The notes under the pieces were generated by a model, which saw only the letters and a program-made list of their open reading frames with translations, was not told the DNA's origin and did not search any database. 64,000 nt of DNA from a virus. This document shows positions 40,109 through 42,952 of this stretch, one piece after another. The DNA lies in the IMG/VR virus record IMGVR_UViG_3300017917_003893, positions 64,001 through 128,000 of that record; one strand, 5' to 3'. Made by a program: the position numbers and the translations under genes. Position 1 is the stretch's first letter, and every line of letters begins with the position of its first letter.

Positions 40109-40753
40109 ATGAATAAAATTGAAATAGAAGGTAAATTAAATAAATCTTGGGTTAATAGTCTATTAGCTGAGGGTTATACAACATATGATATTGTATCAAA
40201 CTATGAAATAGATGAAGATGTTATTTTAGAGTGTTATGAGTTTTTAGATAAAAATGTAATAATACAAGGTCTTAATTTATCAGAAGATTTTATAAACAAG
40301 TCTATTGAAATACAATATTTAGACTTAGAAGATATAAAGGAACTAAGTATGTCTACTTATGCTAATTTGTCTCCGGAATTTATATCTAAATATAAAGAGT
40401 ATATCAACTGGAATAGAATGATTCTCTACATTTCAACTCAGTCAAATTCATTTGATGAATATGTTGAGGTTATTAATGATAAAGACTTATGGCAAGTTAT
40501 TAGTGCTAATGATTTACCATTAGAGTTTATAAGAGAATATAAAGATAAATTAGATTGGTCTTATTTATCAATGGTTAAGTGTTTTACAGATGAGGAAAAA
40601 GAAGAGTTTGGTGATTATATTCTTACACCTGTACAAAAAGAAATAAGCGATGAGTCATTTATTAATCAAGATGATTTAAAATTCTCAGATAAGATGACTG
40701 ATGAAGAGTTAGAAGATTTAATTAATGAAATCTCAAAACATATAGGAAAGTAA
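40109..40753 (+). CDS. Hypothetical protein with tryptophan-repeat-like units
   Basis: LSPEFISKYKEYINW and LPLEFIREYKDKLDW repeats. Confidence 0.65.
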   Translation: MNKIEIEGKLNKSWVNSLLAEGYTTYDIVSNYEIDEDVILECYEFLDKNVIIQGLNLSEDFINKSIEIQYLDLEDIKELSMSTYANLSPEFISKYKEYINWNRMILYISTQSNSFDEYVEVINDKDLWQVISANDLPLEFIREYKDKLDWSYLSMVKCFTDEEKEEFGDYILTPVQKEISDESFINQDDLKFSDKMTDEELEDLINEISKHIGK

Positions 40754-40754
40754 A

Positions 40755-40913
40755 ATGTCAAATTATCAATTAAAAATTTTAGAAAAGTTAGATGATGAGG
40801 ATTGGAATTATCCAAGCGTGGTAAAGGTTGTAATGAAACCTAAATCTGCTATAAACAATCCACCTTTGAAAAAAACGAAATTTTCGAGGTTGATATATAC
40901 TGAACAAAAATAA
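40755..40913 (+). CDS. Small hypothetical protein (52 aa, not in ORF track)
   Basis: MSNYQLKILEKLDDEDWNYP...; starts right after the upstream stop. Confidence 0.45.
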   Translation: MSNYQLKILEKLDDEDWNYPSVVKVVMKPKSAINNPPLKKTKFSRLIYTEQK

Positions 40914-40949
40914 TTAAAAATATTTTTTACAAGATTTAAAACTTTTTCA

Positions 40950-40957
40950 TATCTTTG
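40950..40957 (+). promoter_or_regulatory. Bacteroidota-type -7 element upstream of the ncRNAs
   Basis: TATCTTTG about 27 nt before RNA 1. Confidence 0.55.
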
Positions 40958-40983
40958 TATAAAATAAAAACAAATAAAAAAAC

Positions 40984-41048
40984 CCAGTAGCGAATTGAAG
41001 TGTTACTTCGTATGGATTGAAAAAACACACTTTAATGATTTACTCTGG
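40984..41048 (+). ncRNA. Ro60-associated Y-like RNA 1 (about 65 nt)
   Basis: CCAG/CTGG closing stem, TAGCGA internal loop, ATTGAAGTGT/ACACTTTAAT stem, then TACTTCG. Same architecture as RNA 2. Confidence 0.65.
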
Positions 41049-41066
41049 TCAATATATAGGCTAAAC

Positions 41067-41332
41067 CGCAAGCATAGCGATAGTTTGAGATACTTCGATA
41101 AATATCAATTAAACTATGACAGCCAAAGTGCCGAGCTAACAGCAAAGCTACCTTTCAATCTCCAATTGGCTGATTGATAAAAAGGTGAAAAAGTTCGAAA
41201 AGTACCTCGTAAAGGGCTAAGGAATTCAGAAACTTCCTTTAAATAAAGAACTGAGTGAGATAGTCACTTCAACCATCGGCAAAGTTTCGGGAGAATTCTT
41301 TGTAACGCTTAGGCTAAATTTTCTTGCTTGCG
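41067..41332 (+). ncRNA. Ro60-associated Y-like RNA 2 (about 266 nt) with a large structured insert
   Basis: CGCAAGCA/TGCTTGCG terminal stem, TAGCGA, TAGTTTGAG/CTTAGGCTA stem, TACTTCG, and many internal helices. AATATATA lies at 41051 and a terminator follows. Confidence 0.7.
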
Positions 41333-41344
41333 ATTAACATATAT

Positions 41345-41384
41345 GACCAGATTAACTTTACTGTTAGTCTGGTCTTTTTTTTTT
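41345..41384 (+). terminator. Strong terminator after the Y-like RNAs
   Basis: gaccagattaac-tttact-gttagtctggtc followed by T10. Confidence 0.85.
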
Positions 41385-41394
41385 GAACAAACTC

Positions 41395-41465
41395 GGACAA
41401 GCTCGTGTATCTCGAAAGAGTGAACGGTTTCTAGAGCCAAGGTGGTATCCCACGAGCCTCTGTCC
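41395..41465 (+). ncRNA. Structured multi-way-junction element in the Ro60 leader
   Basis: GGACA/TGTCC and GCTCGTG/CACGAGC stems enclose a CTC-GAAA-GAG hairpin and a GGTT/AGCC hairpin; GC-rich island in an AT-rich background. Confidence 0.55.
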
Positions 41466-41500
41466 CTTAAATAGAAATTAATAAAAATTAAAACGATATT

Positions 41501-42952
41501 ATGTCAAAATTTAACACAACAATGCCAAAGGCAAAAACTCTTACTGAAAACCTAGCAGGTGGTCAAGCTTACTCTCAATCAAATGAGTTAGCTTTAGTTT
41601 CTCTTCTTTTAACATCTTTTGTTAATGATCAGTTCTATAGGAATGCTCAAACGACTCTTGATGAATTGAGAAGCCTTATCACTAAGGTTAAAGATAAAGA
41701 ATTTGTTGCTAAGGCGGCTATATTTGCTCGTGACCGTTTTGGTATGAGAAGTATTACTCATGCTCTTGCTGGTGAATTAACTTCACAACTATCGGGTGCG
41801 GAGTGGGGTAAAAACTTCTACGACAAAGTAGTTGTTCGTGTTGATGATATGACTGAAATCATGTCATACTACTTGGCTTATAAGACATCTAAAGATAGTC
41901 CTAAGTTTCCAAACTCTTTGAAGAAGGGTTTTGCTAAGGCTTTTGATAAGTTTGATGGTTATCAACTTGCTAAGTACAAAGGTGATAACAAAGAAGTTAA
42001 ACTTGTTGACCTTGTTAACATTGTTCACCCAGTTCCAACTGAAAGAAACAAATCTGCTCTTGAGTCACTTGTTAAAGGTGAACTAAAGAACACTCAAACT
42101 TGGGAAGCTAAACTTTCACAAGCAGGGCAAATGGCTGAATCTGAAGAAGATTTGGCTCAACTGAAGGCTGATGCTTGGCAAGAACTTATCTCTACAAGAA
42201 AGATTGGTTACTTTGCTCTTCTTAGAAACTTGAGAAATATCATCACTCAATCACCATCTGCTGTTAAGTCAGCATGTGAGTTGTTAGTTGATGAGAGAAT
42301 GATTAAGAATTCAAGAGTTCTTCCATTCCGTTTCTCAACTGCATATGAAGAAATCTCTAAGTTAGGTTCTTCTAAAGAAGTTCGTGATGTTCTTGTTGCT
42401 ATTAACCAAGCATTGGATATCTCAGTATGTAACGTTCCTAAGTTTGACGGTGAAACACTTGTTGTTATGGACGTTTCTGGTTCAATGAGTGGTAAACCAT
42501 CTGAGATTGCTTCTTTGTTTGGTGCTATTTTAGCTAAAGTTAATAACTGTGATGTTATGACTTTCTCTACTGATGCTCAATATAAGCAATACAATCCAAT
42601 GGATTCAGTGTTGACTATTAGAGGTTCTTTTAGATACTCTGGTGGTGGTACAAACTTTAAGTCTATCTTTCAGAAGGCTAACAAAAAGTATGACAGAGTA
42701 ATTATCTTGTCAGATATGCAAGGTTGGATGGGGTACACTACACCATCTTCTGAGTTTGCTCAGTACAAAAAGAAATACAATGCTAATCCATTTGTATATT
42801 CTTGGGACCTTGCTGGATTGGGTACTTTACAGTTCCCAGAACAAAATGTCTTTGCTTTGGCTGGCTTCAGTGATAAAGTATTTGACATCATGAAAATGAT
42901 GGAGTTAGACAAGAAGGCTCTTTACAATGAGATTAAAGCTATACAGCTTTAA
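41501..42952 (+). CDS. rsr: Ro60/TROVE domain RNA-binding protein with vWA domain
   Basis: NLAGGQAY, DQFY, FARDRFGMRS, YQLAKY, TWE, ALLRNLRNI, LPFRF, MIDAS motif DVSGSM, GGTN and ILSDMQ. Confidence 0.93.
   Translation: MSKFNTTMPKAKTLTENLAGGQAYSQSNELALVSLLLTSFVNDQFYRNAQTTLDELRSLITKVKDKEFVAKAAIFARDRFGMRSITHALAGELTSQLSGAEWGKNFYDKVVVRVDDMTEIMSYYLAYKTSKDSPKFPNSLKKGFAKAFDKFDGYQLAKYKGDNKEVKLVDLVNIVHPVPTERNKSALESLVKGELKNTQTWEAKLSQAGQMAESEEDLAQLKADAWQELISTRKIGYFALLRNLRNIITQSPSAVKSACELLVDERMIKNSRVLPFRFSTAYEEISKLGSSKEVRDVLVAINQALDISVCNVPKFDGETLVVMDVSGSMSGKPSEIASLFGAILAKVNNCDVMTFSTDAQYKQYNPMDSVLTIRGSFRYSGGGTNFKSIFQKANKKYDRVIILSDMQGWMGYTTPSSEFAQYKKKYNANPFVYSWDLAGLGTLQFPEQNVFALAGFSDKVFDIMKMMELDKKALYNEIKAIQL

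What the first reader, a model, noticed from the sequence alone, without database searches (positions are those of the whole stretch)
41098..41307. Large folded insert in Y-like RNA 2 with a possible pseudoknot and RNase P S-domain-like motifs
The insert is about 210 nt and is not the tRNA mimic seen in YrlA. Visible helices are GCCGA/TCGGC (41130/41276), ACCTTT-CAATC/GATTG-AAAGGT (41150-41186), AGTTC/GAACT enclosing two hairpins, and AGTGA/TCACT. CAGCCAA (41120) is complementary to the loop sequence TTGGCTG (41166), which would form a pseudoknot. AAAGTGCC..AACAGCAAAG and GGTGAAA flank one helix much as CR-II and CR-III flank P12 in RNase P RNA, where they form the tRNA-elbow-binding double T-loop. 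The catalytic CR-I and CR-V regions are absent. Speculative: an RNA module that delivers tRNAs to Ro60, or a new ribozyme or aptamer.
Basis: inference. Interest (0 to 1): 0.75.

Follow-up and report, generated by a model that had tools for sequence, protein, structure and literature searches.

The report
Triple-pseudoknot cargo in phage Y-like RNA
The flagged 210 bases are a real, conserved, tightly folded RNA domain held by three pseudoknots. It sits inside a Y-RNA-like "handle" in front of a giant phage's Ro60 gene, it is not built like RNase P, and what it binds is unknown.

Summary
The insert (41098-41307, + strand) is real. The same RNA lies directly upstream of a Ro60/TROVE gene in every related locus found: more than 100 IMG/VR, GenBank and lake-metagenome contigs of huge phages. 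It occurs once per genome and matches no Rfam family.

It does not support GCCGA/TCGGC, AGTTC/GAACT or the CAGCCAA/TTGGCTG pseudoknot.

Three other pseudoknots appear instead, each with many compensatory variants:
- loop 41138-40 with 41193-95;
- loop 41225-29 with 41251-55;
- loop 41259-63 with 41273-77.

The "CR-II/CR-III-like" motifs are the two strands and surroundings of the first pseudoknot. They change by compensation in divergent clades, and no RNase P model matches. The RNase P/T-loop reading is therefore not supported.

Best reading: a new cargo (effector) domain on the second of two tandem Y-RNA-like handles of a phage Ro60 particle. The structure is well supported. The function is inferred only.

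First readers of this scan noted the same two-element locus in related genomes (e1-5725551, e1-5675156, e1-5648674).

The parts
41068..41097 (+). 5' half of the RNA2 handle: S1 (41068-74), UAGCGA (41075-80), S2 (41081-89), A, UACUUCG (41091-97)
   Evidence: S1 is 99% paired with 5/7 pairs changed on both sides. S2 is 95% paired. UACUUCG is present in 58/59 sequences. The same layout occurs in RNA1 (40984-41048) and in crAss-like phage cr111_1.
41098..41129 (+). V1: AU-rich variable linker with a small local hairpin (GAUA/UAUC, 41097-41106), the semi-conserved AACUAUGA, and AAAGU
   Evidence: Length and sequence vary. AACUAU can pair with AUAGUU of the S2 5' strand instead of S2' (79% paired, little covariation).
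41130..41148 (+). Hairpin He: outer pairs 41130-48 and 41131-47, inner pairs 41135-43 and 41136-42, loop UAACA (41137-41)
   Evidence: Pair 41131-41147: CG 29, UA 13, AU 7, UG 5, other 5. Inner GC pair 92% paired. Longer continuous stems occur in the L059/L062 and L092 clades.
41138..41140 (+). PK1 5' strand (AAC in the He loop), pairs with 41193-41195
   Evidence: Pair 41138-41195: GC 46, AU 8, GU 4, other 1. Haplotypes: GAC/GUC, AAC/GUU, AUCC/GGAU, GGUC/GACC, AGUC/GACU, GACU/AGUC. Permutation test 0/2000.
41149..41187 (+).
   Evidence: Base 90% paired, with CG 30 / UA 18 at 41152-41184. 48 of 49 distinct versions fold as one hairpin, mean z -2.15.
41188..41195 (+). A5 linker (41188-92) and PK1 3' strand GUU (41193-95)
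   Evidence: AAAAG is present in 54/59 sequences. PK1 as above.
41201..41218 (+). Hairpin Hg1: 3 bp, a bulge, then 2 bp; loop (A/U)CGUAAA
   Evidence: 93% paired: AU 19/GC 19, AU 24/GC 12, CG 15/UA 10/UG 10. Absent in the L059/L069 clades.
41219..41239 (+). Hairpin Hg2 (AAGGAA/UUCCUU). Its loop holds the PK3 5' strand, UUCAG (41225-29)
   Evidence: 91% paired. Absent in 14 short-type sequences.
41240..41255 (+). A-rich linker UAAAUAAAGAA (41240-50) and PK3 3' strand CUGAG (41251-55; the last 2 nt are shared with the base of Hi)
   Evidence: 20 loop/target haplotypes, e.g. AGUUU/AAACU, UCAU/AUGA, UAUC/GAUA, CAGCU/AGCUG, GUUUU/AAAAC, CAAAUUCC/GGAUUUG. Permutation test 0/2000. Pair 41229-41251: UA 18, GC 15.
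41254..41268 (+). Hairpin Hi (AGUGA/UCACU). Its loop GAUAG (41259-63) is the PK2 5' strand
   Evidence: 87% paired, 4/5 pairs with double changes.
41273..41277 (+). PK2 3' strand CCAUC
   Evidence: Pair 41259-77: GC 39, UA 12. Pair 41263-73: GC 39, UA 8, AU 3, GU 2. Pair 41261-75: UA 54, CG 3, AU 2. Haplotypes: GAUGG/CUAUC, UAUGG/CUAUA, GAUGU/AUAUC, GAUG/CAUC, GAAA/UUUC. Permutation test 12/2000. The window has A.C where most sequences have G.U.
41280..41302 (+). Hairpin Hh (CAAAG/CUUUG plus UUC/GAA, GGGA loop)
   Evidence: 90% paired. CG 50/UA 5, AU 50/GC 3, and other compensated changes.
41303..41331 (+). 3' half of the handle: UAACG, S2' (41308-16), AAUUUUCU (41317-24), S1' (41325-31)
41345..41384 (+). 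Intrinsic terminator. Its 5' arm GACCAGA can also pair with CUCUGGUC at 41042-51
   Evidence: All three strands covary across clades.
41501..42952 (+). Ro60 (TROVE + vWA) gene
   Evidence: Pfam TROVE 7e-19. PHROG 850 'RNA-binding protein' 3e-43. Thermus phage phiLo Ro60 (9KOP/9L5Y) 5e-22 over the full length.

Best explanation
The stretch is the cargo (effector) domain of a Y-RNA-like non-coding RNA of a huge freshwater phage.

Two tandem RNAs lie upstream of the phage's Ro60 gene and share one 'handle': closing stem S1, UAGYGA, stem S2, UAC(U/A)UCG ... AAC, S2', RAUUUWCU, S1'. This is a stem-bulge-stem with a (C/U)GA(A/U) on the 5' strand.

RNA1 carries only a small loop at the apex. RNA2 carries about 210 nt there. 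This domain folds into six hairpins: He, Hf, Hg1, Hg2, Hi and Hh. Three H-type pseudoknots lock them together:
- the He loop pairs with GUY behind an A5 run;
- the Hg2 loop pairs with CUGAG behind an A-rich linker;
- the Hi loop pairs with CYAUC.

Shown: the RNA is conserved, strictly linked to Ro60, present once per genome, and has the helices and pseudoknots described.

Inferred: Ro60 binds the handle, as in other Y RNAs. The compact pseudoknotted cargo then docks or blocks a second partner, most plausibly a host 3'-5' exoribonuclease such as PNPase or another S1/KH-domain protein. The phage Ro60 particle would in this way redirect or dampen host RNA decay.
For: Linkage:
- 92 of 100 loci fetched through Ro60 carry the RNA directly upstream on the same strand.
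- 17 of 18 IMG/VR hits to an insert-specific pattern are the RNA, and all 17 have Ro60 immediately downstream.
- It occurs once per genome in the three records where BLAST found it; the divergent copy in G002 is seen by profile (L010).
- It is absent from bacterial and archaeal genomes; the pattern hits there are chance matches, and none fits the RNA profile.

Structure:
- 84% of cells are paired, against 79% in shuffles (0/500) and <=45% when partners are slid.
- For the pseudoknots, 86.7% against 74.3% (0/500), covariation score 0.295 against 0.140, and <=36% when slid.
- Haplotype permutation tests.
- The AAC/GUU state arose on several branches of the Ro60 tree and always changed on both sides (42 rows, 0 exceptions).
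- The strand is +: conserved U.G pairs in S2 and a T10 terminator.

Handle-plus-cargo logic:
- The same handle with a small loop occurs upstream of Ro60 in crAss-like phage cr111_1.
- It occurs in tRNA clusters of related huge phages, once with a T-arm cargo.

Ro60 homology.

Precedent: Thermus phage phiLo has two Y-like RNAs upstream of its Ro60. They are stem-bulge-stem with a CGAA motif, and they form a ternary complex with host PNPase that slows RNA decay (PMC12135203).
Against:
- No Rfam Y_RNA or YrlA hit.
- The published GNCGAAN0-1G motif is matched only loosely: UAGCGAU in RNA2, UAGCGAA in RNA1.
- Binding of Ro60 to the handle, and of anything to the cargo, is pure inference.
- The RNA is followed by a terminator, and in most relatives there is no visible promoter before the Ro60 ATG. 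A cis-regulatory role therefore cannot be separated from a trans-acting one.
- Hg1 or Hg2 is missing in some clades, so only He/PK1, Hf, Hi/PK2 and Hh form the constant core.
Confidence: 0.55

Rival explanations
1. Cis-acting leader. The whole 400-nt element is the 5' leader of the Ro60 mRNA, and the 210-nt domain is a sensor for a protein, RNA or small molecule. Its folding decides whether the long-range helix CUCUGGUC../..GACCAGAG (41042-56 with 41338-52) or the terminator (41345-84) forms, and so sets Ro60 expression.
For: - The terminator with T10 lies directly 3' of the RNA.
- In most relatives only 25-35 AT-rich nt separate it from the ATG.
- GACCAGA is complementary both to the upstream CUCUGGUC and to the terminator 3' arm, and all three strands covary (e.g. 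L088 AGUUAU / AUAACC / UUGGUUAU).
- An alternative pairing AACUAU/AUAGUU competes with S2.
Against: - The handle's single-stranded motifs (UAGYGA, UACUUCG) are sequence-conserved. They recur far from any Ro60 gene in tRNA clusters and with other cargo, which fits a trans-acting protein-bound RNA.
- The two roles are not exclusive.
Confidence: 0.2
2. One reading: an RNase P S-domain-like module. CR-II/CR-III-like strands flanking a P12-like helix form interleaved T-loops that bind the tRNA elbow and deliver tRNAs to Ro60.
For: There is linear resemblance in the window: AGUGCC..ACAGCAAAG..[hairpin]..GGUGAAAAA, against the RF00010 consensus AGugCcACAGAAAacAgA[P12]GGGUGAAAa.
Against: - No RNase P family scores E<=10 in the window region or in 8 homologues.
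- ACAGCAA occurs in only 18/59 sequences and GUGAAA in 47/59.
- The bases after GUG covary with those before CUAC.
- (G/A)AC pairs with GUY.
- The U of GGUG pairs with the A of CUACC and changes to G-C in L053.
- The UGNRA T-loop signature is not kept at the first site.
Confidence: 0.04
3. An autonomous functional RNA: a new self-cleaving or other ribozyme, or a ligand aptamer, that merely uses the handle as a carrier.
For: High structural complexity for 210 nt (six hairpins, three pseudoknots, near-invariant joiners such as AAAAAGUCCG and AAC.AUCGG) and no known family.
Against: - No match to any catalogued ribozyme or riboswitch.
- Nothing in the sequence points to a cleavage site or ligand.
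- Two of the hairpins are dispensable in some clades.
Confidence: 0.1
4. A purely structural element: a nuclease-resistant knot that stabilises the RNA, or holds the ends of RNA2 together, without a specific partner.
For: Serial pseudoknots with A-rich linkers are typical stabilising folds (my own knowledge of tmRNA and plant-virus 3' UTRs).
Against: RNA1 and the handle RNAs in tRNA clusters do without it. Loop and joiner sequences are more conserved than stability alone would need.
Confidence: 0.1

Closest known systems
Thermus phage phiLo Ro60 with Yrl1/Yrl2 (PMC12135203; PDB 9KOP, 9L5Y)
   Same: - It is a phage Ro60 homologue and the best solved-structure match (E 5e-22 over the full length).
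- Two Y-like RNAs are encoded just upstream.
- Each RNA is stem-bulge-stem with a CGA(A)-type motif on the 5' strand.
   Different: - Yrl1/2 are small RNAs predicted from single sequences, with no large cargo.
- The phage RNA here has a UAGYGA/UACUUCG handle, and RNA2 carries a 210-nt triple-pseudoknot domain.
- There is no sequence similarity between the RNAs.
Bacterial and mycobacteriophage YrlA/YrlB and Deinococcus Yrn1 (Chen et al. 2014, PMC4201824; Rfam RF02553, accession as given in earlier scan notes)
   Same: - Non-coding RNAs encoded next to Ro60/rsr on the same strand.
- Often two per locus.
- Modular: a Ro60-binding stem plus an effector domain.
   Different: - The YrlA cargo is a tRNA mimic (D and T arms).
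- Here there is no T-arm, no ARAGORN call and no Rfam hit.
- The GNCGAAN0-1G motif is only approximated.
RNase P RNA specificity domain (RF00010: J11/12-P12-J12/13)
   Same: Short linear sequence resemblance in the window, and a variable hairpin between two conserved strands.
   Different: - The topology differs: a hairpin plus a pseudoknot here, against two unpaired joiners forming T-loops in RNase P.
- The motifs are not conserved.
- There is no covariance-model match.
Serial H-type pseudoknots of tmRNA (PK2-PK4) and of plant-virus 3' UTRs (own knowledge, not tested)
   Same: Several consecutive hairpin-loop-to-downstream pseudoknots with A-rich linkers, attached to a protein-binding or tRNA-like end.
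   Different: - No tRNA-like domain and no tag reading frame.
- ARAGORN finds no tmRNA.
- No sequence similarity.

Membership tests
Y RNA / YrlA-type Ro60 partner RNA | Encoded next to a Ro60/TROVE gene | tested here: met
   92/100 Ro60-anchored loci carry the RNA, and all 17 pattern-anchored loci have Ro60 directly downstream on the same strand.
Y RNA / YrlA-type Ro60 partner RNA | Ends paired into a long bulged stem (stem-bulge-stem handle) | tested here: met
   S1 is 99% and S2 95% paired, with compensatory changes. Between them lies an internal loop or bulged helix, UAGYGA / RAUUUWCU.
Y RNA / YrlA-type Ro60 partner RNA | Ro60-contact motif on the 5' strand (GGUCCGA in animals; GNCGAAN0-1G or CGAA in bacteria and phiLo) | tested here: inconclusive
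   The window has UAGCGAA (RNA1) and UAGCGAU (RNA2). The family consensus is UAG(U/C)GA(A/U). This gives a CGA(A) core in the right place but not the full published motif (PMC4201824, PMC12135203).
Y RNA / YrlA-type Ro60 partner RNA | tRNA-like effector domain (YrlA subfamily) | tested here: not met
   No tRNA or tmRNA call in the window, no T-arm in 41098-41307, and no Rfam match.
Y RNA / YrlA-type Ro60 partner RNA | Match to Rfam Y_RNA / YrlA covariance models | tested here: not met
   No hit at gathering score in 64 kb, none at E<=10 in 40700-41700, and none in 8 homologous loci.
Y RNA / YrlA-type Ro60 partner RNA | Physical binding to Ro60 | not testable with these tools
   Needs EMSA or co-immunoprecipitation.
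RNase P RNA S-domain (CR-II/CR-III double T-loop) | Similarity to RNase P covariance models | tested here: not met
   no RNase P family at E<=10. Positive control: E. coli rnpB scores 318 bits.
RNase P RNA S-domain (CR-II/CR-III double T-loop) | Invariant CR-II/CR-III nucleotides | tested here: not met
   ACAGCAA in 18/59 and GUGAAA in 47/59 sequences, replaced by compensating sequences in four clades.
RNase P RNA S-domain (CR-II/CR-III double T-loop) | The two motifs are unpaired joiners flanking P12 and form T-loops (UGNRA) | tested here: not met
   The first motif is a hairpin (He) whose loop pairs with GUY. The U of GGUG is Watson-Crick paired. UGNRA is not kept at the first site.
RNase P RNA S-domain (CR-II/CR-III double T-loop) | Binds the tRNA elbow | not testable with these tools
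   Needs a binding assay.
H-type pseudoknot (structural class) | Hairpin-loop bases pair with a downstream strand, and the pairing is kept by compensatory change | tested here: met
   Three cases. 86.7% paired against 74.3% in shuffles (0/500), <=36% when slid. Permutation tests 0/2000, 0/2000 and 12/2000.
tmRNA | tRNA-like domain plus tag reading frame | tested here: not met
   ARAGORN finds none and there is no Rfam tmRNA hit.
Transcription attenuator / riboswitch leader | Aptamer followed by mutually exclusive terminator and antiterminator pairings | tested here: inconclusive
   A terminator and a competing long-range helix exist and covary. No ligand or switching has been shown.

The most novel reading that the evidence does not exclude
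The triple-pseudoknot domain is a new class of autonomous functional RNA: a decoy, an inhibitor or a catalytic module. A phage Ro60 particle would carry it to a host target, for example to trap or re-programme a host exoribonuclease or an RNA-targeting defence system. This would be a Y-RNA effector principle not seen in bacteria or animals.
Probability: 0.15. Interest if true: 0.85.

Novelty: new variant of a known kind. Interest (0 to 1): 0.62.

Why it matters
Y RNAs are thought to work by tethering Ro60 to an effector. The known bacterial and phage cargos are tRNA mimics or simple loops.

This case offers three things:
- A conserved 210-nt cargo with three covariation-supported pseudoknots, found only in a clade of huge freshwater phages. 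It would be a new effector type.
- A well-defined RNA for structural work.
- A direct handle on what phage Ro60 particles do to host RNA metabolism.

The structure model also gives precise compensatory mutants for testing.

Tried and rejected
Position-by-position haplotypes show that the x-y pair fits in only 6 of 18 combinations, and the flanking bases belong to He and Hh.
- A closing helix UCGAU/AUCGG (41095-99 with 41275-79): 79% paired but no covariation, and 21 sequences break the G-C pair.
- Pairing of the Hg1 loop (CGUAA) with UAACG (41303-07): no compensation where UAACG varies (by eye).
- GUCCGA with AUCGG: not compensated.
- A blind scan of all column pairs gave many lineage-correlated false pairs. 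Only those forming antiparallel runs were followed.
- A pattern scan of bacterial and archaeal genomes gave >=120 hits. About 130 are expected by chance (my estimate), and none matched the RNA profile.
- The independent-pairs test on the Ro60 tree was concordant but underpowered: 2-4 pairs on well-supported branches.
- A small ORF (ATG at 41116) is not conserved in frame.
- I did not run complex prediction or structure prediction, because the question is about RNA.

Full report
**Context**

The window is part of a 143-kb IMG/VR virus record estimated at 25% complete, so the genome is roughly half a megabase. Around the finding lie:
- a DnaB-like helicase;
- a class I ribonucleotide reductase;
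- DNA methyltransferases;
- a 483-aa Ro60 homologue at 41501-42952.

The Ro60 assignment rests on Pfam TROVE 7e-19 plus vWA, PHROG 850 'RNA-binding protein' 3e-43, and a full-length match to Thermus phage phiLo Ro60 (9KOP/9L5Y, 5e-22).

The 590-nt gap upstream (40914-41500) has no tRNA. It has no Rfam family at gathering score, and only chance hits at E>3. It ends in a strong intrinsic terminator, 41345-41374 plus T10.

**Homologues**

- tblastn of the Ro60 protein and BLAST of the gap found a 634-kb uncultured phage (LR745206.1) with 70% identity over the RNA.
- Scans anchored on Ro60 gave 19 IMG/VR loci and 80 metagenome loci, mostly from lakes, with Ro60 69-96% identical.
- nhmmer finds the RNA directly upstream of Ro60 in 92 of the 100 loci. 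Most of the others are truncated at a contig end.
- A pattern specific to the insert hit 18 IMG/VR contigs. Seventeen are the RNA, and each has Ro60 just downstream.
- The same pattern in bacterial and archaeal genomes gave only the number of hits expected by chance, and none fits the RNA profile.
- BLAST with the insert finds a single copy in the window's record and in two related genomes of 476-635 kb. The third related genome (G002) holds a more divergent copy that only the profile search detects (L010).

In total, 63 full-length RNAs (59 distinct) were aligned.

**Anatomy outside the insert**

As a first-reader note on this genome pointed out (e1-5878502), two tandem elements share one module: S1, UAGYGA, S2, UACUUCG ... 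AAC, S2', RAUUUWCU, S1'.

For RNA2 I confirmed:
- S1 (41068-74 with 41325-31): 99% paired, with 5 of 7 pairs changed on both sides, including GAGGACA/UGUCCUC in one clade.
- S2 (41081-89 with 41308-16): 95% paired.

Conserved U.G pairs and the T-run fix the strand as +.

The same handle with a small apical loop lies upstream of the Ro60 homologue of crAss-like phage cr111_1. Further copies sit in tRNA clusters of related huge phages. One of these carries a T-arm-like cargo, GUAGG-UUCGAGU-CCUAC. The handle is therefore a portable tag with interchangeable cargo, and the flagged 210 nt are the cargo of RNA2.

Confirmed:
- The 41149-41187 hairpin (Hf).
- The two hairpins at 41201-18 (Hg1) and 41219-39 (Hg2).
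- AGTGA/TCACT (Hi, 41254-68).

Not confirmed:
- AGTTC/GAACT. The nearest relatives have an uncompensated C.A, and part of its 60% pairing comes from short-type sequences in which those columns are the Hg1 3' strand.
- GCCGA/TCGGC. It overlaps He (41130-48, where 41131-47 shows CG 29, UA 13, AU 7, UG 5) and Hh (41280-41302, compensated CG/UA and AU/GC). Its central pair fits in only 6 of 18 haplotype combinations.
- The CAGCCAA/TTGGCTG pseudoknot: 30% paired and mostly gaps.

**New structure**

A scan for covarying column pairs, followed by inspection of divergent clades, revealed three loop-to-strand pairings.

- PK1: the He loop (G/A)AC (41138-40) pairs with GU(C/U) (41193-95), just after the A5 run that follows Hf. 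The states seen are GAC/GUC, AAC/GUU, AUCC/GGAU, GGUC/GACC, AGUC/GACU and GACU/AGUC.
- PK3: the Hg2 loop (41225-29) pairs with 41251-55. There are 20 different complementary loop/target combinations.
- PK2: the Hi loop GAUGG (41259-63) pairs with CUAUC (41273-77). The states seen are UAUGG/CUAUA, GAUGU/AUAUC, GAUG/CAUC and GAAA/UUUC. The window has A.C where most sequences have G.U.

Statistics for the pseudoknots:
- On alignment A4, the 13 pairs are 86.7% paired, against 74.3% in shuffles (0/500) and <=36% when partners are slid. The covariation score is 0.295 against 0.140.
- Permuting targets among haplotypes gives 0/2000 (PK1), 0/2000 (PK3) and 12/2000 (PK2).
- On a Ro60 tree, the PK1 target changes state at least 8 times. 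The AAC/GUU state appears on several branches and is always changed on both sides (42 rows, no exception). The formal independent-pairs test is concordant but underpowered.

Each pseudoknot has an A-rich strand before its 3' arm (AAAAA, UAAAUAAAGAA, UCAA), as is common in H-type pseudoknots. That last remark is my own knowledge.

Hg1 is absent in the L059/L069 clades, and Hg2 is absent in 14 short-type sequences. The constant core is therefore He/PK1, Hf, Hi/PK2 and Hh.

**RNase P comparison**

I fetched E. coli rnpB and let Rfam print its consensus. It reads: P11 5' strand GugCc, J11/12 ACAGAAAacAgA, P12, J12/13 GUGAAAa.

The window's AGUGCC..ACAGCAAAG..[Hf]..GGUGAAAAA does look similar in a linear reading. 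The covariation assigns these bases different roles:
- The CC after GUG are variable and pair with the two bases before CUAC.
- 'ACAGC' is the He loop plus the inner 3' strand.
- (G/A)AC pairs with GUY.
- GGU(G) is the 3' strand of Hf. Its A-U pair becomes G-C in L053.

ACAGCAA is present in only 18/59 distinct sequences and GUGAAA in 47/59. In the L092, L077, L059 and L069 clades they are replaced by other sequences that keep PK1. No RNase P, tmRNA, T-box, Y_RNA or YrlA model reaches E<=10 in the window region or in eight diverse homologues.

**Most likely function**

Shown: a conserved, single-copy, Ro60-linked RNA with a handle shared by several RNAs and a compact, pseudoknotted cargo.

Inferred from established Ro60 biology:
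- Chen et al. 2014, PMC4201824: Y RNAs lie next to rsr, often two per locus, with a Ro-binding stem plus an effector module.
- PMC12135203: phage phiLo has two Y-like RNAs upstream of its Ro60. They are stem-bulge-stem with CGAA, and they form a ternary complex with host PNPase that slows decay.

On this basis, Ro60 binds the handle and the cargo engages a second partner, most plausibly a host exoribonuclease or another S1/KH-domain protein.

The main rival is a cis role. GACCAGA (41345-51) can pair either with the upstream CUCUGGUC or with the terminator 3' arm, and all three strands covary. The element may therefore also attenuate Ro60 transcription, and the cargo could act as the sensor. 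The two readings are compatible, and I could not separate them without expression data, which are not available for this window.

**Novelty and limits**

No Rfam family matches. No description of this RNA turned up in two full-text searches. I did not open the 2023 paper listing candidate structured RNAs of viruses and phages (PMC10690425).

First-reader notes of this scan describe the same two-element locus in related genomes (e1-5725551, e1-5675156, e1-5648674). A follow-up in another lineage reports a different ~200-nt cargo (e1-5746955).

I file it as a new variant of a known kind: a Y-RNA-like partner of Ro60 with a new cargo. All functional statements are inference. The secondary and pseudoknot structure is the well-supported result.

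Noticed in passing
window 40850-40905: A conserved hairpin (CCACCUUUG..AGAGGUUG, with compensatory changes such as CCACCCUC/GAGGGUUG) is followed by the invariant GATATATAC. It overlaps the end of the 52-aa ORF 40755-40913 and is present upstream of the RNA in nearly all relatives. It may be a phage promoter or regulator.
   Followed up: no
window 41042-41056 / 41338-41352 / 41345-41384: GACCAGA can pair with the upstream CUCUGGUC (which also closes RNA1 as CCAG/CUGG) or with the terminator 3' arm. All strands covary across clades. This may be an antiterminator/terminator switch for Ro60.
   Followed up: partly
window 41395-41465: A GC-rich folded element between the terminator and the Ro60 ATG is shared only with L015/L019. 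Other relatives have just 25-35 AT-rich nt there.
   Followed up: no
L102 2458-4587 and L119 2878-5013; contig ends of L016/L020: In some relatives the Ro60 gene is interrupted by about 700 nt between residues 160 and 164. Two other contigs break at the same point. This may be an intron, intein or homing-endonuclease insertion.
   Followed up: no
G001:C1:220338 (L244 318-440); W01:C1:342965 (L245 296-400); G000:C1:137239: Further copies of the UAGYGA..UAC(U/A)UCG handle lie far from Ro60. In two related phages they sit in tRNA clusters. The G001 copy carries a T-arm-like cargo and the W01 copy only a small loop. The G000 copy lies outside the window and is unclear.
   Followed up: partly
L241 752-832 (crAss-like phage cr111_1, MT774387.1): The same handle (GCUCAA-UAGUGA-stem-UACAUCG..AAC-stem-GAAUUACU-UUGAGC) lies upstream of a Ro60 homologue that is only 32% identical (z -5.8). 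A T-arm-containing RNA follows about 250 nt downstream.
   Followed up: partly
window 41080-41085 with 41112-41117: AACUAU in the variable linker is complementary to AUAGUU, the 5' strand of S2 (79% paired in relatives; it shifts to UCAUAGG/UCUAUGA in the L077 clade). This may be a co-transcriptional or alternative fold.
   Followed up: partly
window 41139-41145: The heptamer ACAGCAA equals the 'ACAGCAA handle' that earlier scan notes link to a different Ro60-like (DUF2828) protein. Here it is not invariant (18/59) and is explained by He/PK1, so the match is probably coincidental.
   Followed up: partly
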